From Pirellulales bacterium (GTDB lineage Bacteria > Planctomycetota > Planctomycetia > Pirellulales > JAICIG01), in the NCBI GenBank assembly GCA_035532215.1, contig DATKRK010000301.1, forward strand, positions 1,181 to 65,180: a DNA stretch of 64,000 nucleotides, read 5' to 3'. A model generated the notes under the pieces. It searched no databases. It was given only the letters and a program-made list of their open reading frames with translations, and was not told the origin of the DNA. Positions 1,579 to 58,100 of the stretch are shown in pieces; position 1 is the first letter of the stretch; each line of letters begins with the position of its first letter. Both the position numbers and the translations under genes were made by a program.

Positions 1579-1590
1579 GATCGGAATCGA

Positions 1591-2325: not shown

Positions 2326-2329
2326 TGAG

Positions 2330-4545: not shown

Positions 4546-4584
4546 TCCGGAGCCGGGTTTTACGGCGACAGAGGAGTTTTTTGC

Positions 4585-8175: not shown

Positions 8176-9219
8176 ATGAAACGTGGAAATAGGCGCAAAA
8201 CGGCGTCGGTTCGGGATGTTGTCGCCCGAAGTTCGCGGTCTGCAGCGTGGGAAATCGCTCGACCTCAGGGCGATGTGGCAAGCGAATTGGTCGATGCCGC
8301 GGCGAACGCGGAGGCCTGGCGCGCAAAGATCGGAAACCCGGTCTTTTTAGCGGGTATCGCTATCGTCGCCGCCACGTTTGGTTGGTCCTACTGGCCAATC
8401 GCCTGCGAACTGGTTCGCATCTGGAATCACGAGCCCGACTACTCGCACGGGTATTTTGTCGTTCCGGCGGCGCTGTATTTTCTTTGGTTTCGCCGCGGCA
8501 GTCTGCCGGCGCCCAGCGATCGGCTGCAATGGGGCGGAATGGTTTTGCTGGTGTTGAGTGGGGCGATACGCTTTGCCGGCAGTCTTTGGTATATCGACGC
8601 ACTCCAAGCTTGGTCGATTCCGTTTTGGGTGGCCGGTACCTGCTGGCTCTTTGGCGGTTGGCGACTGCTATGGTGGAGCCTGCCCTCGGTTGGTTTTCTG
8701 GCGTTCATGATTCCGCTGCCCTTTCGGGCGGAACATTTGCTCAGTTTTCCGTTGCAACGCGTGGCCACGAAGCTCAGTTGCTGGCTGTTGCAGTCGCTCG
8801 GGCGTCCCGCTGTGGCCGAGGGCAATGTGATTTATTTGAACGACATCACCCTGGGCGTCGCCGAGGCGTGTAGCGGGCTGCGCATCTTCATGTCGATTGC
8901 CGCGTTGGCTTACATTTACATGGTGCTAGCCAAACGCGATTGGTGGATGAAGGCGATCCTGTGCGCCAGCGTGTTGCCTGTCGCCTTGTTGACCAATGCC
9001 GTGCGGATCGTCGCCACAGCGCTTCTGCACGAATGGGTTTCCGGCGAGGCTGCCCATAAGTTTTCTCACGATTTAGCGGGCTGGCTGATGGCGCCGCTGG
9101 CCGCCGGACTGTTGGGGCTAGTGAGTTGGTACCTCGGCCGGCTGTTGGTCGATGTGGAAATCGTTTCTCCAGGCGAACTGATGTTCGGAGTACATGGCGA
9201 CGGCAAAAGCAAACGATAA
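8176..9219 (+). CDS. xrtA: exosortase (XrtA/EpsH-like)
   Basis: N-terminal motif WNHEPDYSHGYFVVP, catalytic-Cys motif GVAEACSGLR and Arg motif LTNAVRIV in a polytopic membrane protein. The neighbourhood (EpsI, PEP-CTERM-locus-type glycosyltransferase, deacetylase, AsnB-type and FemAB-like genes) matches the XrtA-type system as I recall it. Confidence 0.9.
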   Translation: MKRGNRRKTASVRDVVARSSRSAAWEIARPQGDVASELVDAAANAEAWRAKIGNPVFLAGIAIVAATFGWSYWPIACELVRIWNHEPDYSHGYFVVPAALYFLWFRRGSLPAPSDRLQWGGMVLLVLSGAIRFAGSLWYIDALQAWSIPFWVAGTCWLFGGWRLLWWSLPSVGFLAFMIPLPFRAEHLLSFPLQRVATKLSCWLLQSLGRPAVAEGNVIYLNDITLGVAEACSGLRIFMSIAALAYIYMVLAKRDWWMKAILCASVLPVALLTNAVRIVATALLHEWVSGEAAHKFSHDLAGWLMAPLAAGLLGLVSWYLGRLLVDVEIVSPGELMFGVHGDGKSKR

Positions 9220-27344: not shown

Positions 27345-28262
27345 ATGCGATTGCTCAAACAGTTCGTGCGTAAGGCGTACGCTGGCACGACCCTTCGATT
27401 TGGGGGTGGCTTGGGAGACCAGCTTCTGTGCACCACGGTCGCGCATGAGCTTTCGGTGCGAGGCCACGGGCGGATTTGGATCCTTTCGGAACATCCAGAA
27501 ATCTTCCGAGGAAATCCCGCTGTTACGGGAAGCGTCCCTCCAAAGAGTATTCGAGCAGGGGTAGTTGAGAAGCTCACGGGTTATGAACGTTCATTTTATT
27601 TGCAGTATGATATGCGCGATGTGCGAGCGGATGTATCGTGCCCGCCGACCGAACACATAATTGCAACTATGTGTCGGCAGGCGGGGGTTAGAGGTGATGT
27701 TAGGATCCGACCTTATCTATTCCTAAACAAGTCGGAAATAGCTGTTGCCGGATCCTACCGTGGATATTTGGCAATTCAGAGCAGCGGATTGAGAGCTAGG
27801 CACCCGATTCCGAACAAAGAATGGTATCCAGACCGATTTGCGGAGGTAGCTAAAACGTTGTTAAAGCGCCGCGATATAGTGCAGATCGGATCCGCTTCCG
27901 ACCCGGCCGTGCCTTGCTCAATTGATTTGCGGGGAAAGACGAGTATTCGAGAGTTGGCAGCGGTGCTGGCTAACGCGAGACTGTTGGTCGGTCTGGTAGG
28001 CTTTCCAATGCACTTGGCTAGGGCGGTTGGCTGCCCTGCGGTTGTTGTATATGGTGGCCGCGAGAGACCGGACCAGTCCGGATATTCGTGTAATGTCAAT
28101 CTCTACAACGCGGTACCGTGTGCCCCATGCTGGGCTTACTCGCGGTGTGATTATGAGCGAAGGTGTATGGCCGAGATTCAACCGTCGGACGTTTTGGCCG
28201 GCGTTGCTGCATTGCTCGAGCGCCCCACGGGCGAGTTGGCGTGTGACATAGTGCAATTGTGA
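27345..28262 (+). CDS. glycosyltransferase family 9 (heptosyltransferase-like)
   Basis: C-terminal pattern LLVGLVGFPMHLARAVGCPAVVVYGGRERPDQSGY...NAVPCAPCW, the GT9 donor-domain signature with the terminal C-x-P-C. Confidence 0.75.
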   Translation: MRLLKQFVRKAYAGTTLRFGGGLGDQLLCTTVAHELSVRGHGRIWILSEHPEIFRGNPAVTGSVPPKSIRAGVVEKLTGYERSFYLQYDMRDVRADVSCPPTEHIIATMCRQAGVRGDVRIRPYLFLNKSEIAVAGSYRGYLAIQSSGLRARHPIPNKEWYPDRFAEVAKTLLKRRDIVQIGSASDPAVPCSIDLRGKTSIRELAAVLANARLLVGLVGFPMHLARAVGCPAVVVYGGRERPDQSGYSCNVNLYNAVPCAPCWAYSRCDYERRCMAEIQPSDVLAGVAALLERPTGELACDIVQL

Positions 28263-31178: not shown

Positions 31179-32264
31179 ATGGTTTCTCCGCGAGAACTTG
31201 TTCGCAATGCTTTGTTCGCTTTCGTGCGAAAAATTTCCCGCACCCAGGACGCGAGAGAGATGGCGTGCCAGACGCTCTCTGGGCTGCTCGATGGGCGGCC
31301 GAGGCTGGCAGAGCGAAACGGGCGAGTGCTGTTGACGCAATTGCCATACGACGACCTCGGCCGTGCGACCGAAGGCCAGGCGGCGAATCAGCGCGACGAC
31401 GTTGTGTTCATCACGGCGCGGTTCCGCAGCGGCTCGACGCTGTTGTGGAACCTGTTTCGCAACGTGCCCGGCTGCACGGCTTATTACGAGCCGTTCAACG
31501 AGCGGCGTTGGTTCGACCCCGATGCTCGCGGCAATCGGATTGACCGCACGCACAAACAGGTCGAGGAGTATTGGCGCGAATACGATGGCCTGGACGAACT
31601 AGGCCGCTATTACCGCGAAGCGTGGATCGACAAGAACTTGCTGATGGAAGCCGATTTTTGGGCGCCGGAGATGAAGCGTTACATCGAGTTGCTCATCGAA
31701 CGCGCGCCCGGCCGGCCGGTGCTGCAATTCAACCGCGTCGATTTCCGGCTGCCCTGGCTGCGACGCCATTTTCCCAACGCCAAGTTCATCCATTTGTACC
31801 GGCACCCTCGCGATGAATGGTGTTCGACGTTGATGGGCATTAGGTGCTTTCCGAAGGACGCATCGCCGGCGGAATTCAAGAAGCACGACAAATTCTATTT
31901 GCTGCGGTGGGCGCACGACTTGAAGTTCCATTTTCCGTTCCTGGAGCAGGCGCTCGAGCGGCACCCCTACGAGGCGTTTTATTACATCTGGCGGCTGTCG
32001 TACCTTTATGGCACGGCTTACGCCAATCACTCGATCTGTTTCGAACGGCTCGTCGAGGAGCCGGACGAGGAATTGACGAAATTGCTGGGGTTTACCAAGA
32101 TCGACGCATCATGCCACGACGCCCTGCGCCGCGTGATCGAAAGGCCGCGGATCGGGCAGTGGCGGGATTACGCCGATGATGCGTGGTTCCGCAATATCGA
32201 AGCGCGCTGTGAAGCGGTATTGCAGGAATTCTTGAACCGGGAGGCCGTGTGCGCCCAACGGTGA
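31179..32264 (+). CDS. sulfotransferase-family protein (PAPS-dependent)
   Basis: 5'-PSB-like loop VVFITARFRSGSTLLWN and 3'-PB-like FIHLYRHPRDEWCS. Confidence 0.75.
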   Translation: MVSPRELVRNALFAFVRKISRTQDAREMACQTLSGLLDGRPRLAERNGRVLLTQLPYDDLGRATEGQAANQRDDVVFITARFRSGSTLLWNLFRNVPGCTAYYEPFNERRWFDPDARGNRIDRTHKQVEEYWREYDGLDELGRYYREAWIDKNLLMEADFWAPEMKRYIELLIERAPGRPVLQFNRVDFRLPWLRRHFPNAKFIHLYRHPRDEWCSTLMGIRCFPKDASPAEFKKHDKFYLLRWAHDLKFHFPFLEQALERHPYEAFYYIWRLSYLYGTAYANHSICFERLVEEPDEELTKLLGFTKIDASCHDALRRVIERPRIGQWRDYADDAWFRNIEARCEAVLQEFLNREAVCAQR

Positions 32265-33484
32265 AGGCGATCCGGTCCGTCGCCAGGTTAATTGGGATCG
32301 TTGCGGCGGCGGCGCTCAAGGCCGCGCGTGCTTTGCTATGCGGCGACCGCGAAGCCGCCGCCATGCACGTTCGCGTGCTGACGCTGGCGCTGCTCGACGA
32401 TGCGTCGCAGGCGCTGGTCCGCGCGCAGCGAACGTTCTTTGGCCCGCTGCGGCCGGACGAGATCGATCGCATTTTGATCGTCAAGCTCGACCGGATCGGT
32501 GATATGGTGACGACCACGCCGGTGTTCGATGCGCTGCGAGCAAAGTTCCCCTCGGCCCGGCTCGATATCGTCGCTCATCCGGCGCCGCTGTCATTGCTGG
32601 CCGACGACGAACGGATCGGCCAGCGGATCGCTTACCGTTCGTGGCTTTATCATCCGCTCGCCATCCTGCCGCCGGGACCGCGCACCTGGGGGCTGGTGCT
32701 GCGGCTGATGTGGCGCAGGTATCCGCTCGTAGTCTGTTTGCGGGGCTCGTTTTCCTTCCTGCCGCTCGGCCTGGTCTCGCGGATGACGGCCACGAAGTTC
32801 ATCGAGGGCGAGCCAGTGATTCGGCGGTACTTGCGCTCGATCGAAGAACTGCTCGGCCCGCTGAGTGATCCGCCGCCGCGGCTGCGCGTATCGGCGGAGA
32901 ATCGCCGCTTCGCCGCGGAATTGTTCGCCGGCGGCGAGGCCGACGGCCCGCGGGTCGCGATCCACGCCACTGCCAGCTCGCAGGCCAAAATGTGGCCAGC
33001 CGAGCGGTTCTCCGCGCTGGCTGACGCGTTGCGGGACGAGCATGGCGCGGCGGTACACTTCCTGGGCGCCCCGAGCGATCGGGGCGCGCTGGATGCCATT
33101 GCCCGGCACGCGCGGCACGAGCATGCCTACCATATGTCGCTCAGCCTACCGCAGGTGGCGGCCGTGATTGAAGCTGCGGACGCATTCATCGGCAACGACT
33201 CGGGATTGGCCCACATAGCCGCCGCCGTGGGCACGAGGATGGCGGTGATCTGGGGCGCCCCGAATTTGAGCATGGCTCGCCCCAGGGCCGACGAGCAAAC
33301 TTGTACTATCCTTTATCACGACCTGCCTTGCCGGCAAGGCTGTCCAGAGTTCCGCTGTAACAATCCGAACCGGCTCGAGTGTTTGCTGAGGACGGAAGTC
33401 TTGGATGTGTTCGGTGCGGTCTCCGAACTGCTGGCTCGCGGGGCCGAAGCGACAGAGAAAGAAGCATGCAGCCGGCCGACCTGA
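32249..33484 (+). CDS. glycosyltransferase family 9 (heptosyltransferase-like)
   Basis: ILIVKLDRIGDMVTTTPVFDALRAKFP (GT9 N-domain) and FIGNDSGLAHIAAAVGTRMAVIWG (GT9 C-domain). The GTG start is uncertain. Confidence 0.85.
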   Translation: MRPTVKAIRSVARLIGIVAAAALKAARALLCGDREAAAMHVRVLTLALLDDASQALVRAQRTFFGPLRPDEIDRILIVKLDRIGDMVTTTPVFDALRAKFPSARLDIVAHPAPLSLLADDERIGQRIAYRSWLYHPLAILPPGPRTWGLVLRLMWRRYPLVVCLRGSFSFLPLGLVSRMTATKFIEGEPVIRRYLRSIEELLGPLSDPPPRLRVSAENRRFAAELFAGGEADGPRVAIHATASSQAKMWPAERFSALADALRDEHGAAVHFLGAPSDRGALDAIARHARHEHAYHMSLSLPQVAAVIEAADAFIGNDSGLAHIAAAVGTRMAVIWGAPNLSMARPRADEQTCTILYHDLPCRQGCPEFRCNNPNRLECLLRTEVLDVFGAVSELLARGAEATEKEACSRPT

Positions 33485-34929
33485 GCCGAGTTCGTACGAT
33501 TCCGCTGGAGACGCGGGCCAACAAAGTCGCGCTGGAGCGTTTCGCGCGTCCGCCGCGCGCGGGGGCTTCCTTCGCCGACTTTGCCGCATCGCTGCCCGCG
33601 ATCTTGGCGGGAGAAGAATTCCGCCAGGTCGTCCAAGCGATCACGGCAGCCTGCCGACGCCGGCGGCCCGTGATTCTGGCCATGGGCGCCCACGTCATCA
33701 AGTGCGGGCTGAACCCGGTGGTGATCGACTTGATGCGGCGAGGCGTCGTGACTGGCTTAGTGCTGAACGGTTCAGGGGCGATCCACGACTTCGAGATCGC
33801 GTTGGCGGGCGAGACTTCGGAAGATGTGGCCGCGGGGCTGCGAGACGGAACGTTTGGCATGGTCCGAGAGACGGGCCAGTTGATGAACGAAGGGATCAAC
33901 TGCGTGAAGCAATCGCCCGAGAGTGGGCTGGGGATGCTTCTGGGCCAGCAGTTGGAAGCCATTGGCGCGCCCAATCAGGACCAGAGCCTGCTGGCGATGG
34001 GGAGAAAGTTGGGCGTGCCTGTCACTGTCCACGTGGCGATCGGCGCCGACATCATCCACATGCACCCTTCGGCCGACGGGGCGGCGATCGGCCAAGCCAC
34101 GTTCAACGACTTCCGCATCCTATGCGCTGAGCTAGGCGAGCTATCGGGCGGGGCGTATCTGAACGTCGGCTCGGCAGTCGTTTTGCCCGAAGTGTTTTTG
34201 AAGGCGTTCACGGTGGCCCAGAACTTGGGCGCGGACCTGCACGACTTCACGACCGTCAACATGGACATGATTGCCCACTATCGGCCAGGTGAAAACGTTG
34301 TGCGGCGGTTGGCGCCGATCGGGGGCGGGAGCTACACGCTGCTCGGGCGGCACGAGTTCATGGTTCCGCTGCTGGCTCAAAGCATCGTCGAGTCACTGGC
34401 GGATGATGCGGTCGATTCGGCGGCGGCGCCCTCGGGCTCTGGCGGCAAGCTTGTCGGTTTGGATGAGTTGTTGCGGCTGCGCAACGACTGGCGGAGACAG
34501 GGCCGCCGGGTTGTTTGGACGAATGGCTGCTTCGACTTGTTCCATGTCGGCCACCTCCGCAACTTGCAAGCGGCGCGGCAACACGGCGACGTGCTGGTCG
34601 TAGGCGTCAATAGCGACGCGTCGGTACGGCAACTGAAAGGGCCGGAGCGCCCTGTTATACCGGCAGTGGAGCGTGCAGAAATCATTGCCTCGCTGGGTTG
34701 CGTGGATTGCGTGACAGTGTTTGACGAAGCGACGCCCGAGCCGCTATTGCGGCGACTACAGCCCGATGTTCATTGCAAGGGCGCCGAGTACGCCCCCCCA
34801 TACGGAAAACCGATTCCCGAACGAGAGACGGTCCAGGCGTACGGCGGTCGCATCGAGTTTATCCCGCTGGTGCCTGGCATATCGACTACGGATGTTCTGG
34901 AGCGGATAAGGCTGGAAGCGAAAGACTGA
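33466..34929 (+). CDS. fusion: N-terminal deoxyhypusine-synthase-like domain + C-terminal heptose-1-phosphate adenylyltransferase (RfaE domain II / HldC-like)
   Basis: C-terminus VVWTNGCFDLFHVGHLRNLQAARQHGDVLVVGVNSD carries the HxGH cytidylyltransferase-fold motif. The N-terminal part of about 345 aa (VILAMGAHVIKCGLNPVVIDLMRRGVVTGLVLNGSGAIHDFEIAL) parallels the DHS-family pattern by eye. The start was moved to ATG 33466. Confidence 0.8.
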   Translation: MQPADLSRVRTIPLETRANKVALERFARPPRAGASFADFAASLPAILAGEEFRQVVQAITAACRRRRPVILAMGAHVIKCGLNPVVIDLMRRGVVTGLVLNGSGAIHDFEIALAGETSEDVAAGLRDGTFGMVRETGQLMNEGINCVKQSPESGLGMLLGQQLEAIGAPNQDQSLLAMGRKLGVPVTVHVAIGADIIHMHPSADGAAIGQATFNDFRILCAELGELSGGAYLNVGSAVVLPEVFLKAFTVAQNLGADLHDFTTVNMDMIAHYRPGENVVRRLAPIGGGSYTLLGRHEFMVPLLAQSIVESLADDAVDSAAAPSGSGGKLVGLDELLRLRNDWRRQGRRVVWTNGCFDLFHVGHLRNLQAARQHGDVLVVGVNSDASVRQLKGPERPVIPAVERAEIIASLGCVDCVTVFDEATPEPLLRRLQPDVHCKGAEYAPPYGKPIPERETVQAYGGRIEFIPLVPGISTTDVLERIRLEAKD

Positions 34930-34943
34930 CGGAGTTGAGGTAC

Positions 34944-35921
34944 ATGGCGACCCAAAACGATATTGTCGAGATTGCCGAGCGCTTCCGCGGCCGGCGGATT
35001 CTGGTTGTGGGTGATGTGATGCTAGACGAGTACATATGGGGAAGCGTCGAGCGCATCTCGCCCGAAGCGCCGGTACCGGTGGTTCAGGTGCAGCGGCGGA
35101 GCCACGTTCCCGGTGGGGCCGCAAACACGGCCGCCAACGTGGCCAGTCTTGGCGGTCTACCGATATTGGGCGGCGTAGTAGGCCACGACCTCTACGCGGA
35201 ACTGCTTCGCGAGAAGCTCGGGGAAAGCAGCGTGGAAGCCTCGGGGTTAGTTGCCGACGCGCAGCGCCCCACGACCTGCAAGACGCGCATTGTCGCCCAC
35301 GACCAACAGATCGTGCGAGTCGATTGCGAACAGCGAAATACGTTGCCGGCCGATGTCGAGGAGTCGTTGCTTGCGTGGGCCCGCGAGCAGATCAAAGATG
35401 TGGATGCCTGTATCCTTTCGGACTATGCGAAAGGAGTCGTCTCGCCGCGGCTGGCCCAGGGACTGATCCAGGCGGCCCGCGCCGCCGGCAAGCCGTTGAT
35501 CGTGGACCCTAAGCCCGACGGCTTCGCGAAGTACCGGGGGGCTACGCTGGTTAAGCCTAACCTGCTGGAGGCCGAGCGCGTCTGCAATCGTCGCCTCGAT
35601 GGGGATGAGCAGTTGCGCGCGGCAGGGAGCGCGTTGTGTGAATTGCTGGAGGGTAGCGCTGTGTTGATCACGCTCGGCTCGCGCGGCATGATGCTCTTCC
35701 GCCCCGGTGTGGCGCCGGTCGGCGCGGCGGCCACCCAGCAGCAGGTTTTCGATGTGACCGGCGCCGGTGATACCGTAGCCAGCGCGCTGGCAATGGGTCT
35801 GGCAGCCGGCATTTCGCTCGACGAAGCGGCGCGCCTGGGCAATCGCTGTGCGGGAATCGCCGTCGGCAAGGTGGGGACGAACACGGTTACGCTTGACGAG
35901 TTGCTGGCTGATCATTGTTGA
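34944..35921 (+). CDS. heptose-7-phosphate kinase (RfaE domain I / HldA-like, PfkB family)
   Basis: ILVVGDVMLDEYIWGSVERISPEAPVPVV and the PfkB motif DVTGAGDTVASAL. The start was moved to ATG 34944. Confidence 0.85.
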   Translation: MATQNDIVEIAERFRGRRILVVGDVMLDEYIWGSVERISPEAPVPVVQVQRRSHVPGGAANTAANVASLGGLPILGGVVGHDLYAELLREKLGESSVEASGLVADAQRPTTCKTRIVAHDQQIVRVDCEQRNTLPADVEESLLAWAREQIKDVDACILSDYAKGVVSPRLAQGLIQAARAAGKPLIVDPKPDGFAKYRGATLVKPNLLEAERVCNRRLDGDEQLRAAGSALCELLEGSAVLITLGSRGMMLFRPGVAPVGAAATQQQVFDVTGAGDTVASALAMGLAAGISLDEAARLGNRCAGIAVGKVGTNTVTLDELLADHC

Positions 35922-36649
35922 TCGGGCGTGATTTCATTCGGGACAACCTGGTGATCAAGGGCTTTTTGAAATCGTTTGCTAATGTTGTAGCGACAGTTGT
36001 CGTGCTGCCCTGTTGGGCGGCGTACTGGATTTCGGCGGCCGCGTTAGGACCAAGGGAGGCCTTTGCCGGCTGGTCGCAGGCATTCAGCCTGCTGCCAGGT
36101 CTGTGTGGCGTGTACCTGCGGCGGGCATTTTACAAGTTGGTCTTGGCTGAATGCGGTGACGGAGCCTGCATCACTTTCGGCACGGTCATCTCGCACCCAT
36201 CGGCGCGAATCGGCCGCAACGTCTACGTAGGGGCCTTTTGCGTGCTGGGCGACGTGACGCTGGAAGAAGACGTGTTACTTGGTTCAAATGTGTCGATCAT
36301 TAATGGCGGCCGGCAACATGGAATCGAGCGACTCGACCTTCCCGTGCGCGAACAGCCCGGAGAGTGGCCCCGCGTAACGATCGGCCGCGACAGTTGGATC
36401 GGCGACCGCGCGTTGGTGATGGCCGACGTCGGCCGGCATTGCGTGGTGGCGGCCGGCGCCGTCGTTACCAGGTCCGTGCCGGATTATACGATAGTTGCCG
36501 GTGTACCGGCGCGCATCATCGGCCGTCGTGGCGCTGCGAGCGGCGAACCGAACCCGATTGAGCAGACCGCGGCCATCGTCAACGCACATCAGGTACGTGG
36601 CGAAGTCGCTCCAATCAGCGTCCGGAACATACCACCGGTCAACCGCTGA
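35915..36649 (+). CDS. membrane-anchored hexapeptide-repeat (LbH) acyl/acetyltransferase
   Basis: Two N-terminal hydrophobic helices, then hexapeptide repeats VGAFCVLGDVTLEEDVLLGSNVSIING...IGDRALVMADVGRHCVVAAGAVVTRSVPDYTIVAGVPARIIG. The TTG start is uncertain. Confidence 0.8.
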   Translation: MLIGRDFIRDNLVIKGFLKSFANVVATVVVLPCWAAYWISAAALGPREAFAGWSQAFSLLPGLCGVYLRRAFYKLVLAECGDGACITFGTVISHPSARIGRNVYVGAFCVLGDVTLEEDVLLGSNVSIINGGRQHGIERLDLPVREQPGEWPRVTIGRDSWIGDRALVMADVGRHCVVAAGAVVTRSVPDYTIVAGVPARIIGRRGAASGEPNPIEQTAAIVNAHQVRGEVAPISVRNIPPVNR

Positions 36650-49528: not shown

Positions 49529-50515
49529 ATGTACTTCACTGTAACTGTTGATACCGAGGAGGAGTGGGACTGGGGGGACGGCTGGCCTACCAGTCGGCCG
49601 CAGGTTACAAACATTCAGGCGTTGCCCAGGTTCCAGCAGCTTTGCGCGCGATACGGCGCGAGGCCGACTTACTTCGTCAACCTCGCAGTGCTCGAGGATC
49701 CGAAGGCCTGCGCGGTGATCCTTGACTTGGCGTCGCGCGACGACTGCGAAATCGGGATGCACATTCACCCGTGGAACACTCCGCCTATCTTGGATCATCG
49801 GCCCGCCACCGCCCGCGACACGTTTCTTCACAACCTGCGAGAGGACCTGATCACTGCAAAGCTGACCAGCGTCTACAACCGGTTTCTTGAACTCGGCTTG
49901 CGACCGACAAGCTTCCGCGGAGGCCGCTATTCAAGCGGCGGCCAGGTTACCCAGTTCTTGCAAGATCATGGCTTCAAGGTGGATGCCTCGGTACTGCCCA
50001 TGACCACCTGGCCTGACGACGGGGCTCCGGATTATCGGCGGCGAGACCTGCTGCCTCGACGTCTTGCGCCGTCGCGCGAGGGCGAACTGCCGCTTTGGGA
50101 AATTCCCTTAACCTTGGGCTTTACGCGTAAGCCGCTAGCATTCTGGCGCCGGTGGTACGAGGCCATCGAAGCGAGTTGGCTGAGCAAACTGCGCTTGATT
50201 GGAATCGGAGAGCGATTGGGCATCGTTCGTCGCGTCTGGCTGAACTTCGAGTCCCCACTGGGGGAACACATGCTGAAGTTCCTTCCGCTGCTCCGGAAAA
50301 TGCAAGTGCCCTGCGCATGCTTCACGGTCCACAGCTCGTCGCTGGTGGCGGGGCCGGGACCGTACACCCGCACGTCGCAAGACGAAGATCGGATCTTCCG
50401 ACAAATAACTGGCGCCTTTCAATGGGTCGCCACTAACGCGGATTTCATTCCTACGACTATGACCGACCTAGCCCATCAACTGGAGGGCGAATACCATGCG
50501 TGTACTAGGAATTAG
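49529..50515 (+). CDS. polysaccharide-deacetylase-like protein (WalW/WbmS-type)
   Basis: MYFTVTVDTEEEWDWGDGW...ARPTYFVNLAVLEDP...EIGMHIHPWNTPP. The start was moved to ATG 49529, just after the upstream stop. Confidence 0.6.
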   Translation: MYFTVTVDTEEEWDWGDGWPTSRPQVTNIQALPRFQQLCARYGARPTYFVNLAVLEDPKACAVILDLASRDDCEIGMHIHPWNTPPILDHRPATARDTFLHNLREDLITAKLTSVYNRFLELGLRPTSFRGGRYSSGGQVTQFLQDHGFKVDASVLPMTTWPDDGAPDYRRRDLLPRRLAPSREGELPLWEIPLTLGFTRKPLAFWRRWYEAIEASWLSKLRLIGIGERLGIVRRVWLNFESPLGEHMLKFLPLLRKMQVPCACFTVHSSSLVAGPGPYTRTSQDEDRIFRQITGAFQWVATNADFIPTTMTDLAHQLEGEYHACTRN

Positions 50516-52370
50516 CCCTTTGGATAAAGACTCGACGGCCTCCTTCCTGGAAGACGGACGCGTCGTGTTCGCCTGCGCCGAAGAACGACTCTCGAGAGTC
50601 AAGCTGCAGGACGGATTCCCGCATCGTGCCGTTCGATTGGGACTGGAACGCACCGGGTGGGATCCGGCATCCATCGATGTCGTGGCCTACGCGTTCTTCG
50701 ACGGCGACGAGGAGGCCAGGCTGATCGGGGCGGCGGTGACACTTGACGGCGAAAGGCACTCGCCAACTGCGACCAGCTCATCGTTGAAGAGACTAAGAGA
50801 AGCCCGACAGGGCTATCGAATGGACCGCAGCATGCGCGTGCATGGCATCGAAAGCGAACGAGACGAGTTTGTGCCTCCAAAGCCATTGGCCAAGCGCATG
50901 GTCTATGAGCTGCTGTCAAGGCTTCCGCGACTTGATCACTGGGCCCACCGGCGCTTATTGCGAACATGGGAGCGTGAAGCGGCCGCTGATCATCGGTTGC
51001 GAACGCAGCAACTCGAAGCGGGATTGGCAGAGTACGGCCTGACAGGCAAGCTGCGTCGCTTCCAGCATCACGACACACATGCTGCTAACTCGTTCTTCGC
51101 CTCGGGCTACGACGAGGCATTGCTGGTCACCTTCGACGGCTACGGTTCAGGTAAATGCGGCGGAATCTACGTCGGCGATAGCAGCGGCATCCGCCTACTG
51201 CACCGGTTCGACTTTCCCAATTCGCTCGGCAATTTCTACGAGCATGTGACCAGCGGTCTGGGATTCCGCGCCGGACGGCACGAGGGCAAAATCGTCGGGC
51301 TGGCCGCGTACGGCAACCCCGACATTCTGAAGCCGGCCCTTTTGGAGCGATTCGATTGCCGTGACGGCGACATCGTGATGAAAGGAAGCCAGAACTACTT
51401 CTTTACGCGGGCCCTCGCGCAGCATTTTGCCAAGCGCGACGTGGCCGCCGCTTATCAGCGAGTCCTAGAGGAGGTCGGGGCCAAAGCGGTCGCCTATTGG
51501 CTCAAGCAGACGGGTATAAGAAACGTAGCAGTTTCCGGCGGCGTCCACGCGAATGTGAAGTTCAACCAGCGGATTCGGGAGGTCGATGGGGTGGAGTCGG
51601 TATTCGTCTATCCAAACATGGGAGATGGCGGTTGCGGAACAGGCGCCGCGATGCTCGCATTTGAACCATCGAGCTTCCGCCAGCGGCCGGTAGCCAACGT
51701 ATACCACGGTCCCGACTACTCGGAGGATGAAATCGCGGCCGAGTTGAACAAGAGCGGCCTAGCGTTCGATCGTTCGGACACCATTGAAGTGCAGGTGGCT
51801 CGCTTGCTGGACGACAACCGGATTGTGGGGCGGTTCGAGGGTCGCATGGAGTACGGGCCGCGAGCCTTGGGCAACCGTTCGATTCTCTATCCCGCGGGCG
51901 ATCCCGAGGTCAATCAATGGCTTAACCATCAACTGGGACGCACGGAGTTCATGCCTTTTGCGCCAGCGGTGCTGCAGAGCGAGGCGCATCGTCTGTTCAA
52001 GAACCTCGAGGGGTGCGAAAAGACGGCTGAATTCATGACAATTACCTTTGATTGCACCGACGAAATGATTCGCATGTGTCCCGCCGCCGTCCACGTCGAC
52101 GGCACGGCCCGGCCACAGCTCGTCAGCGAGCGCACAAATCCGAGCTTTCATCGAATTCTTTGCAGCTACTATGAGTTGACCGGAATACCCGCCGTCATCA
52201 ACACGAGTTTCAACATGCACGAAGAACCCATCGTCTGCTCGCCGGCGGATGCCGTACGCGCCTTTTTGCAAGGCAGACTCGACTATCTCGCCATCGGTCC
52301 GTTTCTCGTTCCACATCCGCGGTTGAGCGACATCGAGCGAGAGCGAGAAAGCCTTGCCGTCAAGGCGTAG
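50496..52370 (+). CDS. carbamoyltransferase (NodU/CmcH family)
   Basis: MRVLGISPLDKDSTASFLEDGRVVFACAEERLSRVK is the Carbam_trans N-domain pattern, and FMPFAPAVL...NTSFNMHEEPIVCSP is the C-domain pattern. Confidence 0.9.
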   Translation: MRVLGISPLDKDSTASFLEDGRVVFACAEERLSRVKLQDGFPHRAVRLGLERTGWDPASIDVVAYAFFDGDEEARLIGAAVTLDGERHSPTATSSSLKRLREARQGYRMDRSMRVHGIESERDEFVPPKPLAKRMVYELLSRLPRLDHWAHRRLLRTWEREAAADHRLRTQQLEAGLAEYGLTGKLRRFQHHDTHAANSFFASGYDEALLVTFDGYGSGKCGGIYVGDSSGIRLLHRFDFPNSLGNFYEHVTSGLGFRAGRHEGKIVGLAAYGNPDILKPALLERFDCRDGDIVMKGSQNYFFTRALAQHFAKRDVAAAYQRVLEEVGAKAVAYWLKQTGIRNVAVSGGVHANVKFNQRIREVDGVESVFVYPNMGDGGCGTGAAMLAFEPSSFRQRPVANVYHGPDYSEDEIAAELNKSGLAFDRSDTIEVQVARLLDDNRIVGRFEGRMEYGPRALGNRSILYPAGDPEVNQWLNHQLGRTEFMPFAPAVLQSEAHRLFKNLEGCEKTAEFMTITFDCTDEMIRMCPAAVHVDGTARPQLVSERTNPSFHRILCSYYELTGIPAVINTSFNMHEEPIVCSPADAVRAFLQGRLDYLAIGPFLVPHPRLSDIERERESLAVKA

Positions 52371-55192: not shown

Positions 55193-58100
55193 ATGAACTT
55201 TCATAAGCGCCTGAACCCCGCAACGGATCGCAGGGATGCGCCAGGGGACGTCTGCGGGCGTCGTCGCGCGCTGGCGGCGCAGGCCCTTTCGCTCGCGCTC
55301 GTGCTGCTGGCCGCGACCGGTTGCAATCCCCCGCCGAACGCCGGCCCGCGGTTTCTGCGGCAGATTGAGTGGGTCGGTCGCGGCACGTGGCTCAAGGCCG
55401 ATACGCACGTGCATACGCAGTTTTCCGACGGGGCCCATACCGTCTCGGAAGTCGCCGCCAAGGCCTCGGAGTTCGGCTGCGATGTGCTGGCGATCACCGA
55501 CCATGCCGATCGCGAATTGGGCGCCGGCACGCATGAGTATATCGAGGCCATCGCCGCGGCCCGCCGCGAGTTTACCGAACTGACGATTCTGGCCGGCATC
55601 GAGTGGAACATCCCGCCTTGGGGCGGCGACGAACACGCCGTGGTGCTGTTGCCGCCCGGCGATCGCGAAGGGCAATTGCTGGCCGAGTTCAAGGCGCGGT
55701 TCGACGACCTGGGGCGCGAGGAACACGACCCTGCGCTGGCCGACGAAGGGCTCGAATGGCTGGCTGGTCAGGCGGCGGAGGGCGTCGGCCCCGTAGCGAT
55801 TTACGAGCACCCCGGCCGCAAGCGACCGCGCGCCGGGCAGGTCCTCGGCGAATTGCGGCGTTGGCGGGCCGTGAACGACGTGATGGTCGGCTTTTCCGGT
55901 GCACCGGGGCATCAGGCCATGCAGCCCTTGGGCGCGTATCGCGGGACGCTCAAGCCGGTCGATCGCTGGGACCCGGCGGCGGCCAGCGTAGGCGACGCCT
56001 GGGACCGCTTGCTCCAGCAGGGCATCGATGTCTGGGCCGCGTATGCGCCGTCTGATTTTCACGACGACCGCGGCGACGGCTTGGGCGATTATTGGCCGGG
56101 CGAGTTTTCCGAGACTTGGCTTTACGCCCCCGAGCGCTCGGCGGCCGGCGCCCTGCAAGCGCTGCGGGCCGGAACGTTCTTCGGCGTACACGGCCACATC
56201 GCCCGCGACGTGGAGTTGCGCGTTGAAGCCACCGGCTTGCCTCGCGCCGCGGTTGCAGGCGAAGCGATCGAAGCGGCGCCGGGAACCGAGTTGACCGTCG
56301 AACTATCAATGCTGACCGCCGACGTCGATTGGCAGGGCCGGCCCAGCCGCATCGACGAGATCGAGCTGATCGGCATCACGCCGAGCGGCGCGAAAACGCT
56401 GGCCAGTTGCCCGCCTGACGCTGGCGGCCGTACGCGATTGATAACCATCGATACGCCAGCCGACGGAATCGTACTCAGAGCCCGCGGCCGGCGGATCGTC
56501 GAAGACGGCCCCGATTTGATGTTCTATACCAACCCAATCCGCGTGACGACGACCGCAGGCTCGAATCGGCGTCTCGATCGATTCGCCGCTTCCGGCGTCA
56601 ATCGATTCGCGGCGAGCGCCGCCGCCCGGCCAGCGCCGCAGGGCGATTCGCCGTCGGCGCGCAGCGCCAATCGGTCGCTGTTGCAGTTCTTGTTTCGACC
56701 GGTGGCGCTAGTCAACGTGGGCGGCTTAGCGATCGGCGGCGCAGTGCTGCTCTTGTTGGGAGGGACGCGGCGCAGCGCGCGCGGCGCTCCCGCGAATCGC
56801 CCGGCTTCGGGCGCAATCGATTCCGGCGCGCCAGCTCCTGCGCGGACGACGGTCGCCGCCCCGCGACCCGGCCACTTCTTCTTCGCCTGGCTGGGCTTCG
56901 CGGCGTTCGCGGTTTACGGATCGTGGGTGCCGCTCAATTTTCGGCCCTTGCCGTGGGCGGAAGCCGTGACTCGCTTTCGAGCGATACCTTTCTTGCACCT
57001 GTCGATCGGATCCCGCGCCGACTGGGTTGCGAATATTCTACTGTTCGTGCCGATCGGCTTTTGCGGCTTGGGCGCGTGCGTCTGCGATCGCCGCGGTCGG
57101 CTGTTGAAAATGGGCGCGACCCTGGCCGTGATTGGCCTTTGCGTGGCGCTGAGCGTATCCGTCGAATTCAGCCAGCTCTGGTTTCCCGGGCGAACGGTCT
57201 CGCAGAACGATATCGTGGCGGAAACGATGGGCGGCACGGCCGGAGCCGCGTTATGGCTGTTCGTCGGCGAGCGGTTAACCGCCTGGCTTCGCTCGTTCGC
57301 CGTCCGCAAGGACAGCGGGCGGCAGTTTGATTGGCTGCTGCAAGCGTATCTGCTGGGGCTCGTTCTGTATTCGTTGTTCCCCCTTGACCTGACGATCAGT
57401 CCGGCCGAACTCTGGCATAAATACCGCGAGGGCAAGTTCCGCCTGCTTCCGTTCGCCGACGTGCAGTTTACCGTCGAAGGCTGCTTCGCGCTGGCCAGCG
57501 ACGTCCTGCTGTTCCTGCCGGTCGGCATGCTGGCCCCGACCGCCTTTCGCAGTCCTGACCGCCCGGTCCGTTCGCTCTTCCGAAGCCTTATCGCCGGCTT
57601 GGCAGTGGCGGGGGGGATTGAACTCGCCCAGACGTTCGTCTATAGCCGTTACGTCGACGTGACGGAGTTGATTACAGCCGCAATCGGCATCGCAGCGGGC
57701 GCCGCCTGGCGGCGAAGACGGCTCGCGCGGCCGGGCGATTCGCCGTTGTCCCGGACGAGCCGAAGGTGGTTGTGCGCCGTGCATCTGCTGGCATTTGTCG
57801 CCTATGCGGCGTTTTTGGCCGCGTTTTTCGTGCTGCCGTTCGATTTCATCGAAGATGCCGCGCGAATTGAGCCCCGCTGGCAGAATTTCTTCGGCGTCCC
57901 GTTGAGTAGTTTATATTTCAGCACGGAATACAACGCCCTGACACAAGTCTTGCGCAAAGGGCTGCTGTTTGCGCCGCTGGGTTATCTCGCCGTTCGCATC
58001 ACCGCCTTGGGGCGCCTGGGCGGCTGGGCGCGGATGGCGGCGCTGGCGTTGTGTTTGGGCGCGGCTTTCGCTTTGGCGTTTGGCATCGAGTACGCCCAGA

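What the first reader, a model, noticed from the sequence alone, without database searches (positions are those of the whole stretch)
33466..34929. Heptose-1-phosphate adenylyltransferase fused to a roughly 345-aa deoxyhypusine-synthase-like domain, with the RfaE kinase half as a separate gene
In most bacteria I know of, RfaE/HldE is kinase + adenylyltransferase in one protein, or two small proteins (HldA, HldC). Here the adenylyltransferase module (TNGCFDLFHVGH...) is the C-terminus of a 487-aa protein. Its N-terminal two-thirds (VILAMGAHVIKCGLNPVVIDLMRRGVVTGLVLNGSGAIHDFEIALAGETSEDV) resembles, by eye, the Rossmann-like core pattern of the deoxyhypusine-synthase family rather than any heptose-pathway enzyme. 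The kinase (34944-35921) follows as its own gene. No GmhA isomerase or GmhB phosphatase is visible in the window. The extra domain could supply a missing pathway step or divert the nucleotide-heptose into a modified sugar. That last point is speculation.
Basis: partly seen in the sequence, partly recalled or inferred. Interest (0 to 1): 0.6.

Follow-up and report, generated by a model that had tools for sequence, protein, structure and literature searches.

The report
Unknown DHS-like domain fused to HldC
This gene joins a normal ADP-heptose-making enzyme (HldC) to a widespread but uncharacterised protein family that looks like deoxyhypusine synthase and sits beside, or is fused to, heptose-pathway genes in many bacterial phyla, so the textbook heptose pathway probably has an unrecognised extra component.

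Summary
Bases 33466-34929 (+) are one 487-aa ORF, recovered identically in independent assemblies.

- **C-terminus (aa 339-482):** an HldC-type heptose-1-phosphate adenylyltransferase.
- **N-terminus (aa 4-305):** matches NCBIfam NF052581 "GSU2086 family protein" (E 1e-117). Its AlphaFold model matches deoxyhypusine synthase best (Foldseek TM about 0.6, 15% identity).
- **Kinase:** HldA is the next gene. I found no GmhA or GmhB in the 64 kb.

The N-domain is neither a true DHS nor an oddity of this genome. Thousands of roughly 315-aa homologues exist. They lie directly next to GmhA, HldA or HldC in at least ten phyla. They also occur fused to GmhA, HldA, HldE, HldC and a DUF89 phosphatase.

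A GmhB phosphatase sits beside the domain in a syntenic sister locus and in Geobacter, so the domain is unlikely to be the missing phosphatase.

My best guess (about 0.35) is a nucleotide-cofactor enzyme that converts a phosphorylated heptose intermediate, possibly a C6 epimerase doing HldD's job. No paper in the searchable library describes the family. Interest is moderate to high. I class it as a new variant of a known kind.

The parts
33466..34929 (+). Fusion gene, 487 aa: GSU2086-family (DHS-like) domain, linker, then HldC adenylyltransferase
   Evidence: ORF. Domain hits. Identical product on independent assemblies. Continuous reading frame.
33475..34380 (+). N-terminal domain (aa 4-305), GSU2086 family, with a deoxyhypusine-synthase-like alpha/beta fold
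   Evidence: NF052581 at 392.7 bits, E 1.3e-117. AF2 pLDDT 80, pTM 0.78. Foldseek best matches are DHS 7cmc, 8put and 1dhs. Residues conserved in at least 95% of 105 diverse family members include H76, K79, H107, D108, E110, T117, S118, E119, H189, D215, S236, E242, K246, D267, Y272, R273, R281 and E297.
34381..34479 (+). Inter-domain linker (aa 306-338), partly disordered and poorly conserved
   Evidence: pLDDT below 50 for aa 315-326 and pTM 0.57 for the whole protein, consistent with two independently folded domains. These alignment columns are variable.
34480..34911 (+). [quoted passage not shown]
   Evidence: TIGR02199 at 171.6 bits and PF01467 E 6.5e-17. 5x9q HldC E 2e-27. The FDLFHVGH (HxGH) and GISTT motifs are visible in the sequence.
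34944..35921 (+). HldA, heptose-7-phosphate kinase (RfaE domain I) as a separate gene 14 nt downstream
   Evidence: TIGR02198 at 372 bits, above the 345 cutoff, and PfkB E 8e-47. GGAG/GAGG lies upstream of the ATG.
32249..33484 (+). GT9 heptosyltransferase-like gene whose stop overlaps the fusion gene's start by 19 nt. It is the likely consumer of the ADP-heptose.
   Evidence: PF01075 E 2.4e-27. Heptosyltransferase I/II/III models hit below their cutoffs. The same GT9 then fusion order appears in L095.
27345..28262 (+). Second GT9 heptosyltransferase-like gene in the same cluster
   Evidence: PF01075 on the called gene at L001 3880-4797, which maps to window 27345-28262.
35918..36649 (+). Hexapeptide-repeat acyltransferase overlapping the end of hldA (operon context)
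   Evidence: Hexapep E 5.6e-13. Gene call. A hexapeptide gene also lies downstream of hldA in the sister loci, immediately after it in L095.

Best explanation
**Shown by tool results.**
- The gene encodes a two-domain protein of nucleotide-heptose synthesis.
- The C-terminal 150 aa are an ordinary HldC (heptose-1-P + ATP gives ADP-heptose).
- The N-terminal 305-315 aa belong to the large, strongly conserved GSU2086 family.
- That family is a very remote relative of deoxyhypusine synthase. It keeps the DHS-type alpha/beta nucleotide-binding core but lacks a conserved lysine at the position of DHS Lys329.
- The family is a recurrent, unrecognised companion of the pathway enzymes GmhA, HldA, GmhB and HldC.

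**Inferred.**
- All four canonical activities (isomerase, kinase, phosphatase, nucleotidyltransferase) are found beside it or fused to it, so it supplies a further activity.
- Every characterised relative of this fold (DHS, the AgrE/ArgZ C-domain) uses bound NAD+ for a transient oxidation.
- The only cofactor-dependent step of the E. coli pathway, the SDR epimerase HldD, was never seen next to it.

**Proposal.** The domain binds NAD(P) or the ADP-sugar in its DHS-like cleft. It performs a redox-neutral conversion of a phosphorylated heptose intermediate, most likely inversion at C6 (D-glycero to L-glycero). This could happen on ADP-heptose made by the fused HldC, or earlier on heptose-7-P made by GmhA. 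The product feeds the adjacent GT9 heptosyltransferases of this exosortase-type polysaccharide locus.

**Confidence split.** About 0.9 that it is a genuine heptose-pathway component. About 0.35 for the epimerase-type mechanism.
For: **Membership and fold:**

**Family size and conservation.**
- At least 8000 proteins match in the homologue search.
- 459 confirmed loci were found in GTDB species genomes.
- Identity is 31-62% across 105 representatives, with about 30 invariant residues.

**Neighbourhood.**
- 35 of 88 loci examined have GmhA, HldA or HldC on the same strand within about 2.5-3.5 kb. That includes 28 of 45 sources outside Gemmatimonadaceae.
- Gene orders seen: GmhA>X (12), HldC-GmhA>X (4), X>HldC>HldA (7), X>HldA(>HldC) (5), X>HldC>GmhB>HldA (2).
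- Taxa include Planctomycetota, Chthonomonadaceae, WOR-3, Binatia, Chloroflexota, Desulfobacteraceae and relatives, Acidobacteriota, Latescibacteria and Omnitrophota.
- In Omnitrophota the domain sits with KdsB-KdsA-KdsD.

**Fusions.** X-HldC, HldC-X, X-HldA, X-HldA-HldC, GmhA-X, X-SIS, DUF89 phosphatase-HldC-X.

**A phosphatase coexists with X.**
- L095: GT9 > X-HldC > GmhB > HldA.
- L088: X > HldC-GmhB > HldA.
- Geobacter: gmhB-hldE-GSU2086-gmhA.
- L090: HAD > X > PfkB > SIS.

**Genetics.** Tn-seq in Geobacter gives GSU2086 the same electrode-growth defect as hldE and gmhA: -3.2 against -3.1 and -3.7.

**No HldD nearby.** No HldD-like gene was detected in any neighbourhood or in the window. 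The SDRs tested near X are not HldD.

**DHS-type nucleotide-loop motifs recur.** GAHVIKCGL...NGxxxIHDxE aligns with DHS TANLVSTGL...TTGGTIDHDLA. Pfam DS and ArgZ-like hits cover this stretch in many members.
Against: - No biochemical data exist and the cofactor is unproven.
- The residue-level alignment to DHS is statistically weak (hhalign probability 0.5-4%). Conservation of the NAD contacts therefore cannot be asserted.
- In the low-confidence global alignment, several putative cleft positions are basic in the domain (H76, K79, H107). That would also suit a phosphosugar rather than NAD.
- The most conserved partner is GmhA, the first step, not HldC.
- One member sits in a cluster without any HldC (L090). 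That does not fit an enzyme acting on ADP-heptose, though it does fit one acting on a heptose phosphate.
- In the P0005 locus an SDR 'Epimerase/GDP_Man_Dehyd' gene overlaps the start of an X-HldC gene. If that SDR is HldD, X is not its substitute. No DNA was available to check.
- I could not test whether genomes with X lack HldD.
- The Geobacter Tn-seq phenotype may be a polar effect on hldE.
- In 36 Gemmatimonadaceae loci no heptose gene is adjacent; the order there is GT2-DUF3108-X.
Confidence: 0.35

Rival explanations
1. The domain is a non-HAD heptose-1,7-bisphosphate 7-phosphatase. It would replace GmhA-pathway partner GmhB, so that fusion plus HldA would cover kinase, phosphatase and adenylyltransferase.
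For: - No GmhB-like gene in the 64-kb window.
- Only one partial GmhB-like hit, about 9.6 kb upstream in L025, within 10 kb in the 80 GTDB loci.
- Clusters such as L065 (X>HldA>HldC...GmhA), L089 (HldE'>X>SIS) and the triple fusion X-HldA-HldC (P0124) contain every step except a phosphatase.
- Many invariant His, Asp, Arg and Lys residues.
- Geobacter gmhB insertions are tolerated, and gmhB is not among the electrode-defect genes.
Against: - A bona fide GmhB lies directly beside X or X-HldC in L095, L088 and Geobacter.
- A HAD lies beside X in L090 and a DUF89 phosphatase is fused in P0132 and P0206.
- Redundant phosphatases in one operon or one polypeptide are unlikely.
- The fold family is known for nucleotide-cofactor chemistry, not hydrolysis.
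- From E. coli knowledge, gmhB is often unlinked and partly dispensable, so its absence from a cluster says little.
Confidence: 0.1
2. The domain works at the GmhA step without redox chemistry. It might set the anomer or isomer of heptose-7-phosphate before HldA, or clear wrong or damaged heptose phosphates (metabolite repair).
For: - GmhA is the commonest immediate neighbour, always upstream on the same strand, in 17 loci.
- GmhA-X pairs stand alone in Desulfonema and relatives.
- Gene and fusion orders GmhA>X>HldA, GmhA-X, X-HldA and X-HldA-HldC follow that pathway order.
- The SIS partnership survives in divergent plasmid copies.
- The family is fused to a 'damage-control' DUF89 phosphatase.
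Against: - The E. coli pathway needs no such step (established knowledge).
- Fusion to HldC in either order is the most frequent fusion.
- No known mutarotase or repair enzyme has this fold.
Confidence: 0.2
3. The domain is not an enzyme. It is a nucleotide- or ADP-heptose-binding regulatory or scaffolding subunit that assembles or controls the heptose enzymes.
For: - Fused or adjacent to every pathway enzyme without a fixed partner.
- Very high conservation, 50-70% identity between phyla, is typical of proteins with many interaction surfaces.
- DHS relatives are tetramers (established knowledge), and a tandem X-X protein exists (P0131).
Against: - The roughly 30 invariant residues are mostly polar or charged (His, Asp, Glu, Lys, Arg, Tyr). 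They cluster near the ends of the predicted beta-strands, the usual active-site location.
- Standalone occurrence far from heptose genes in Gemmatimonadaceae.
Confidence: 0.12
4. The domain does DHS-like amine or other tailoring chemistry. It would divert nucleotide-heptose into a modified sugar specific to this exopolysaccharide locus.
For: - DHS, homospermidine-synthase-like and AgrE relatives all act on amines.
- The window is a richly decorated glycan locus with sulfotransferase, methyltransferases, a carbamoyltransferase, AsnB and acetyltransferases.
- The plasmid copy in Solidesulfovibrio lies among radical-SAM and nonulosonate genes.
Against: - The family accompanies core LPS-precursor genes (KdsA/KdsB/KdsD, and gmhA alone) in many phyla with no such tailoring genes nearby.
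- No conserved lysine at the DHS Lys329 position.
- Conservation is too uniform for a strain-specific decoration.
Confidence: 0.1
5. The fusion is an assembly or gene-calling artefact, and the two halves are really separate genes.
For: In Fimbriiglobus the same two modules are separate adjacent genes.
Against: - An identical ORF occurs in at least four independent assemblies.
- Ten orthologous fusions of 63-85% identity exist, plus an independent one in Latescibacteria.
- The frame is uninterrupted.
Confidence: 0.01

Closest known systems
[quoted passage not shown]
   Same: The C-terminal 150 aa align end to end with HldC (E 2e-27 to 5x9q). They carry the HxGH and ISTT nucleotidyltransferase motifs and are followed by the matching kinase gene.
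   Different: The partner domain is neither the kinase (as in HldE) nor absent (as in HldC). The three heptose nucleotidyltransferase architectures listed by Tang and colleagues are mono-domain, kinase/NT and isomerase/kinase/NT. None of them includes it (PMC11573728). The protein scores 171.6 bits, just under the 181.5 cutoff, as do standalone HldC proteins of this clade. Its motif is LVPGISTT, with Ile where the promiscuity motif (F/L)xxGRSTT has Arg. By inference it is ATP-specific.
GSU2086 family (NCBIfam NF052581), prototype Geobacter sulfurreducens GSU2086
   Same: Full-length match above the curated cutoff (392.7 against 250 bits). It shares all family-invariant residues and the same association with heptose genes.
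   Different: Most members are free-standing proteins of about 315 aa. Here the domain is fused N-terminally to HldC. The family has no assigned function. [quoted passage not shown]
Deoxyhypusine synthase (Pfam PF01916; PDB 1dhs, 7cmc, 8put)
   Same: Same overall fold (Foldseek probability 1.0, TM 0.52-0.64). Similar beta1-loop and beta2-loop motifs. The low-confidence global alignment also lines up RPxExV and PLL stretches. Some databases already call relatives 'deoxyhypusine synthase family protein'.
   Different: - 11-17% identity.
- Pfam DS 13.6 bits against a cutoff of 27.
- The family profile finds no PDB sequence.
- hhalign probability below 5%.
- No conserved Lys at the catalytic Lys329 position.
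- Genomic partners are heptose enzymes, not the translation factor or polyamine genes.
AgrE/ArgZ C-terminal domain and LOR/SDH-like proteins (PF21570; PDB 6lrh, 3c2q)
   Same: These are the second-best structural matches. PF21570 recurs weakly over the first beta-alpha-beta unit, E down to 8e-8 in family members. The AgrE structure 6lrg is a ternary complex with ornithine and NAD+.
   Different: Only the N-terminal 60 residues of the profile match. The substrates there are amino acids. No link to sugars is known.
HldD (RfaD/GmhD), ADP-L-glycero-D-manno-heptose 6-epimerase (SDR; TIGR02197)
   Same: This is the proposed functional analogue. It is the one nucleotide-cofactor step of the E. coli pathway and the only canonical step never seen beside the domain.
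   Different: No sequence or fold relationship. The analogy is by elimination and fold chemistry only, and is untested.
GmhB (HAD-IIIA heptose-1,7-bisphosphate 7-phosphatase; TIGR00213 / NF006506)
   Same: This is the pathway step that looks missing from the window and from most clusters that contain the domain.
   Different: No HAD motifs or hits in the domain. Genuine GmhB coexists with the domain in L095, L088 and Geobacter.

Membership tests
HldC / RfaE domain II adenylyltransferase | Nucleotidyltransferase alpha/beta fold with an N-terminal (H/T)xGH motif and a C-terminal ISxT motif | tested here: met
   FDLFHVGH at aa 356-363 and GISTT at aa 471-475. PF01467 covers aa 351-479.
HldC / RfaE domain II adenylyltransferase | Score at or above the curated TIGR02199 cutoff (181.5 bits) | tested here: inconclusive
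   171.6 bits over the full model, 3-143 of 144. Standalone HldC proteins of the same clade score 163-179 bits. The Latescibacteria fusion scores 195 bits.
HldC / RfaE domain II adenylyltransferase | Genomic pairing with the heptose-7-phosphate kinase | tested here: met
   HldA (TIGR02198, 372 bits) starts 14 nt downstream.
HldC / RfaE domain II adenylyltransferase | Catalyses heptose-1-P + ATP to ADP-heptose | not testable with these tools
   Needs an enzyme assay.
HldE (bifunctional kinase/adenylyltransferase) | PfkB kinase domain and adenylyltransferase in one polypeptide | tested here: not met
   No PfkB hit in the 487-aa protein. The kinase is a separate ORF.
GSU2086 family (NF052581) | Full-length match above the curated cutoff (250 bits) | tested here: met
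   392.7 bits, aa 4-305 against model positions 2-300 of 301.
GSU2086 family (NF052581) | Family-invariant residues present | tested here: met
   All positions conserved in at least 95% of 105 members are present in the window protein, including G74, H76, K79, H107, D108, E110, T117, S118, E119, H189, D215, E242, K246, D267, Y272, R273, R281 and E297.
GSU2086 family (NF052581) | Association with nucleotide-heptose genes (my operational criterion; the family has no defined function) | tested here: met
   Fused to HldC and followed by HldA here. 35 of 88 loci have GmhA, HldA or HldC adjacent.
Deoxyhypusine synthase (PF01916) | DHS-type fold | tested here: met
   Foldseek top hits 7cmc, 8put and 1dhs, probability 1.0, TM 0.52-0.64.
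Deoxyhypusine synthase (PF01916) | Sequence membership (Pfam gathering score 27 bits) | tested here: not met
   13.6 bits, E 0.041, covering only aa 50-117. The family profile finds no PDB DHS. hhalign probability 0.5-4%.
Deoxyhypusine synthase (PF01916) | Catalytic lysine (human Lys329) forming the enzyme-imine intermediate | tested here: not met
   The only conserved lysines in 105 members are K79 and K246. The segment that aligns with DHS 320-330 reads YRPxxNVVxRP with no Lys. Caveat: that alignment has low confidence.
Deoxyhypusine synthase (PF01916) | Binds NAD+ | not testable with these tools
   The loop motifs resemble those of DHS, but no ligand modelling or assay was possible.
GmhB (HAD-IIIA phosphatase) | HAD fold, DxDxT motif, and a match to TIGR00213 or NF006506 | tested here: not met
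   No HAD model hits the protein. Genuine GmhB genes sit beside orthologues.
HldD (SDR heptose 6-epimerase, TIGR02197) | SDR Rossmann fold with a GxxGxxG motif and a YxxxK catalytic pair, plus a TIGR02197 match | tested here: not met
   No SDR or TIGR02197 hit in the protein. A functional analogy is proposed, not membership.

The most novel reading that the evidence does not exclude
The GSU2086/DHS-like domain is a true enzyme catalysing a step of nucleotide-heptose biosynthesis that the textbook scheme (GmhA, HldA/HldE, GmhB, HldC, HldD) does not contain, or that it performs with an unrelated protein. One example would be a non-SDR, NAD-dependent C6 epimerase acting on heptose phosphates or on ADP-heptose. 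If so, in Planctomycetota, Acidobacteriota, Desulfobacterota, Chloroflexota, Binatia, Omnitrophota and other phyla, LPS-core and glycan heptose is made by a pathway variant with a new enzyme family.
Probability: 0.45. Interest if true: 0.8.

Novelty: new variant of a known kind. Interest (0 to 1): 0.6.

Why it matters
The ADP-heptose route has been treated as fully solved since the early 2000s. It now draws attention both as an antibiotic target and as the source of the ALPK1 innate-immune agonists.

A strongly conserved protein family is tied to this route by neighbourhood in about ten phyla and by at least seven different fusion architectures. That implies an overlooked activity in a large part of bacterial diversity.

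Identifying the activity would do three things:
- complete pathway reconstructions for poorly studied phyla;
- add a new chemistry to the deoxyhypusine-synthase fold, so far known only for amine substrates;
- tell us which heptose stereoisomer or nucleotide these organisms expose.

The fusion in this window gives a compact construct for testing coupled activity with HldC.

Tried and rejected
**Rejected.**
1. **Assembly artefact.** Ruled out.
2. **True DHS.**
   - Pfam DS is below threshold.
   - The family profile against PDB sequences finds nothing.
   - hhalign against verified human and vertebrate DHS is weak.
   - There is no conserved Lys at the DHS Lys329 position.

**Made unlikely.**
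3. **GmhB substitute.** GmhB lies next to X in L095, L088 and Geobacter.

**Found nothing.**
4. **GmhA, GmhB or HldD in the window and loci.**
   - E. coli seeds found GmhA in many loci but never in the window.
   - They found no GmhB or HldD in the 80 loci or the window.
   - Extra GmhB, DUF89 and HAD seeds gave only a partial GmhB hit in L025.
5. **Phage homologues.** None found.
6. **Literature.**
   - No paper in the searchable library combines 'deoxyhypusine synthase' with heptose, hldE, gmhA or rfaE.
   - GSU2086 appears in one Tn-seq paper only.
   - Searches for Planctomycete or Geobacter HldD information led nowhere.

**Could not be completed.**
7. **Does Geobacter have hldD?** The supplementary gene tables were truncated before the relevant genes.
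9. **Full-length AF2 model.** It shows two independent domains (pTM 0.57) and gives no hint of a fixed inter-domain channel.

**Artefacts of my own analysis.**
10. Apparent GmhA-X fusions in L036 and L055, and an HldC-containing 696-aa ORF in L065, were artefacts of my naive ORF caller: different reading frames or N-terminal read-through.

Full report

Yes. The + strand carries an ORF from 33379/33466 to 34929. Alignments with 34 homologues start at the ATG at 33466 (MQPxDLSRVRT...). A purine-rich GAAAGAAG precedes that ATG, and the start overlaps the stop of the upstream GT9 gene by 19 nt. The frame is uninterrupted through the inter-domain region. The next gene starts 14 nt after the stop, behind GGAG/GAGG.

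The identical 487-aa product is encoded on a JGI 76-kb contig, two Logan assemblies of different sequencing runs, and an NCBI Pirellulales MAG. Ten further fusions of 63-85% identity exist. An independent fusion of 47% identity occurs in a Latescibacteria MAG. An assembly artefact is excluded.

**2. The two halves.**

*C-terminal half.*
- Pfam finds only CTP_transf_like at aa 351-479.
- NCBIfam finds rfaE_dom_II at aa 339-482. The score is 171.6 bits against a cutoff of 181.5, and free-standing HldC proteins of the same clade score 163-179 bits.
- The closest solved structure by sequence is Burkholderia HldC 5x9q (E 2e-27).
- The HxGH and ISTT motifs are present.
- The motif reads LVPGISTT. 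It has Ile where the promiscuity motif (F/L)xxGRSTT of Tang and colleagues has Arg (PMC11573728). By inference this is an ATP-specific, ADP-heptose-forming enzyme.

*N-terminal half.*
- It matches NCBIfam NF052581 "GSU2086 family protein" over aa 4-305 (392.7 bits, cutoff 250, E 1e-117).
- It has no Pfam family above threshold. DS, the deoxyhypusine synthase model, scores only 13.6 bits.
- An AlphaFold2 model of aa 1-345 has pLDDT 80 and pTM 0.78.
- Foldseek finds deoxyhypusine synthases as its best PDB matches: 7cmc, 8put and 1dhs, with E 2e-7 to 1e-6, probability 1.0, TM 0.52-0.64 and 11-17% identity. LOR/SDH-like 3c2q and the AgrE/ArgZ C-domain follow.

*Whole protein.* The full-length model shows two separately folded domains joined by a disordered linker (aa 315-326, pTM 0.57).

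*Neighbouring gene.* The downstream gene is a clear HldA kinase (TIGR02198, 372 bits).

**3. It is not a deoxyhypusine synthase.**

- A profile of the family finds no PDB sequence.
- I verified my copy of human DHS against the PDB and compared profiles. hhalign gives probability 0.5-4%.
- The low-stringency alignment is colinear. GAHVIKCGL aligns with TSNLISSGI, YRPxENV with ARPDEAV, and VPLL with FPLL. phmmer independently aligns the beta1-alpha1-beta2 stretch with archaeal DHS 8put.
- Across 105 diverse members only two lysines are conserved, K79 and K246. Neither lies in the segment corresponding to the DHS catalytic Lys329 loop.
- It is a remote relative that keeps the nucleotide-binding core and has a different active site.

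**4. What the domain belongs to.**

The family is large.
- The homologue search saturated at 8000 proteins. Most are free-standing, about 315 aa long, and 65-75% identical to the window domain. They include Abditibacteriales, Tectimicrobiota and Gemmataceae.
- 459 confirmed loci were found in GTDB species genomes.
- About 30 residues are conserved in at least 95% of sequences that share only 31-62% identity. Most of these are His, Asp, Glu, Lys, Arg or Tyr.

Gene neighbourhoods are the key evidence. I examined 88 loci.
- GmhA lies immediately upstream on the same strand in 17.
- HldC and/or HldA lie immediately downstream in 14.
- In all, 35 loci carry at least one heptose gene within about 2.5-3.5 kb. 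The background expectation is well below 1%.
- Taxa covered include Planctomycetota, Chthonomonadaceae, WOR-3, Binatia, Chloroflexota, Desulfobacteraceae and relatives, Thermodesulfobacteriaceae, Acidobacteriota, Latescibacteria and Omnitrophota.
- In Omnitrophota the order is X-HldA-KdsB-KdsA-KdsD, an LPS inner-core precursor operon.
- In Geobacter sulfurreducens the order is rmlA-gmhB-hldE-GSU2086-gmhA. Transposon insertions in GSU2086 give the same electrode-growth defect as those in hldE and gmhA (PMC5585712). Polar effects on hldE cannot be excluded.
- Two plasmid copies keep the link. One is [AT-kinase]-X-SIS in Solidesulfovibrio. The other is HAD-X-PfkB-SIS in a Chloroflexota plasmid.
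- The exception is Gemmatimonadaceae. All 36 loci read GT2-DUF3108-X-DAO-LipA-PDH with no heptose gene nearby.

Fusions give the same message. Seven architectures join the domain to pathway enzymes, and an eighth is a tandem repeat:

| Architecture | Examples |
|---|---|
| X-HldC | this window, P0121-123, P0168, L033 |
| HldC-X | P0125, P0130, P0169, P0196 |
| X-HldA | P0252 |
| X-HldA-HldC | P0124 |
| GmhA-X | P0126 (P0303 also carries a SIS domain) |
| X-SIS | P0255 |
| DUF89 phosphatase-HldC-X | P0132, P0206 |
| tandem X-X | P0131 |

**5. Which function?**

*Phosphatase.* The window lacks GmhA and GmhB. A substitute phosphatase is therefore tempting, and most clusters indeed lack a phosphatase. 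But the syntenic sister locus L095 carries a bona fide GmhB. Its fusion is 65% identical and its flanks match: GT9 upstream, then HldA, hexapeptide transferase, AsnB and PcRGLX downstream. GmhB (NF006506, 156 bits) sits between X-HldC and HldA. L088 has X followed by an HldC-GmhB fusion and HldA. Geobacter has gmhB in the operon. L090 has a HAD next to X. P0132 and P0206 carry a DUF89 phosphatase in the same polypeptide. Redundant phosphatases are unlikely, so I rate this rival at about 0.1.

*A further activity.* Isomerase, kinase, phosphatase and nucleotidyltransferase all coexist with X, so X should add another activity. The characterised relatives of the fold use bound NAD+ for transient oxidation. 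The only cofactor-dependent canonical step, the SDR epimerase HldD, was never detected near X, and the SDRs I could test nearby are not HldD. I therefore favour a redox-neutral conversion of a phosphorylated heptose, most simply C6 epimerisation. It could act on ADP-heptose, which fits the HldC fusions and the DUF89-HldC-X order. It could instead act on heptose-7-P, which fits the dominant GmhA>X>HldA order and the HldC-less cluster L090.

*Status of this proposal.* This is inference with confidence about 0.35. Weak points:
- The cofactor is unproven.
- The residue mapping to DHS is unreliable.
- Putative cleft residues are basic.
- An unclassified SDR overlaps an X-HldC gene in the P0005 locus.
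- I could not profile HldD presence across genomes.

Alternatives are a non-redox helper at the GmhA step or metabolite repair (0.2), a regulatory or scaffold subunit (0.12), and amine-type tailoring (0.1).

**6. Context in the window.**

The gene lies in a single-strand cluster of roughly 45 kb with the features of an exosortase-associated polysaccharide locus. In order it contains:
- exosortase EpsH, an AAA_31-domain protein (766 aa), a 1462-aa TPR protein and EpsI;
- the priming transferase, a deacetylase and ABC-2/Wzt export;
- a Wzy_C protein and two GT9 genes;
- several GT2 and GT4 genes;
- sulfotransferase, methyltransferases and acetyltransferases;
- a Gfo/Idh/MocA oxidoreductase and an SDR;
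- AsnB, a carbamoyltransferase and an RmlC-like isomerase.

The ADP-heptose made here probably feeds the GT9 enzymes of this glycan.

**7. Novelty.**

- No paper in the searchable library links a DHS-like protein to heptose genes.
- GSU2086 occurs in one Tn-seq paper as a hypothetical protein.
- The recent survey of heptose nucleotidyltransferases recognises only three architectures, none with this domain.
- The family is catalogued (NF052581) but unnamed as to function.
- I class the finding as a new variant of a known kind. It is a fourth HldC architecture whose partner is an uncharacterised, pathway-linked enzyme family.
- Interest is about 0.6, and would be higher if the domain proves to be a new pathway enzyme.

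Noticed in passing
window 8176-54626 (+ strand): The whole central part of the window is one co-directional exosortase/EpsI-type polysaccharide locus. It contains EpsH (8176-9219), an AAA_31-domain protein (9350-11650), a 1462-aa TPR protein, EpsI, Bac_transf, a polysaccharide deacetylase, ABC-2/Wzt_C export, Wzy_C, many GTs, sulfotransferase, carbamoyltransferase (50496-52370), AsnB, a PcRGLX-like protein and an RmlC-like isomerase. Very similar loci flank the fusion's orthologues (L095, L088, P0005).
   Followed up: partly
window 34929-34944 compared with L095 11452-12037: In the syntenic locus L095 a 184-aa GmhB gene sits between X-HldC and HldA. In the window the two genes are only 14 nt apart, so GmhB has been lost here or lies elsewhere in the genome.
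   Followed up: yes
L025 8592-9980; also L028, L029, L031 (Binatia): An HldC-GmhA fusion protein (adenylyltransferase plus isomerase, 463 aa) lies directly upstream of the GSU2086-family gene. This architecture is not among those usually listed for heptose enzymes.
   Followed up: partly
L088 10976-11979: An HldC-GmhB fusion (adenylyltransferase plus HAD-IIIA phosphatase). In this assembly it appears split by a frameshift into 267-aa and 84-aa calls.
   Followed up: partly
L087 327-7198: A cluster with HldE, the DUF89-HldC-X triple fusion, split transketolase, a transketolase-C/transaldolase fusion and GT9, followed on the opposite strand by two large STT3 oligosaccharyltransferases. It has two HldC domains and its own sedoheptulose-7-P supply, and may be an N-glycosylation system that uses heptose.
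   Followed up: no
L089 10336-17941 (Solidesulfovibrio carbinolicus plasmid pDCAR1): A reversed-order HldE (adenylyltransferase N-terminal, kinase C-terminal) is followed by X, SIS and three radical-SAM genes, next to nonulosonate genes and split transketolase. This suggests a heavily modified heptose.
   Followed up: no
L090 9152-12582 (Chloroflexota plasmid): A HAD-X-PfkB-SIS module with no nucleotidyltransferase lies beside a sugar ABC transporter, Gfo/Idh/MocA oxidoreductases and deoC. The family may also work in a catabolic or non-nucleotide context.
   Followed up: no
36 Gemmatimonadaceae loci among L034-L083, e.g. L045 8398-10930: In Gemmatimonadaceae the family gene is always preceded by a GT2 gene and a DUF3108 gene. 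It is followed by a DAO-type FAD oxidoreductase, lipoyl synthase and a 2-oxoacid dehydrogenase complex, with no heptose gene nearby.
   Followed up: partly
P0131 (679 aa) and P0233: Tandem duplication of the GSU2086 domain in one polypeptide. This is consistent with the domain working as a dimer or tetramer, as DHS does.
   Followed up: no
window 55193-58993 (+): A 1266-aa protein combining a PHP phosphoesterase domain with a VanZ-like domain, just downstream of the glycan locus.
   Followed up: no
window 382-5517 (+): FtsX/ABC transporter, a membrane-fusion protein, a faint nitroreductase-like protein and a ThiF-like protein, with a FeeM-like gene just outside the window on the same contig. 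Possibly a small peptide or metabolite export or modification cluster.
   Followed up: no
all 81 sources clustered (80 GTDB loci + window), opposite strand of the X gene: Long antisense ORFs overlapping the family gene cluster across 58-67 of these sources in my naive ORF analysis. They are high-GC shadow ORFs, not genes.
   Followed up: yes
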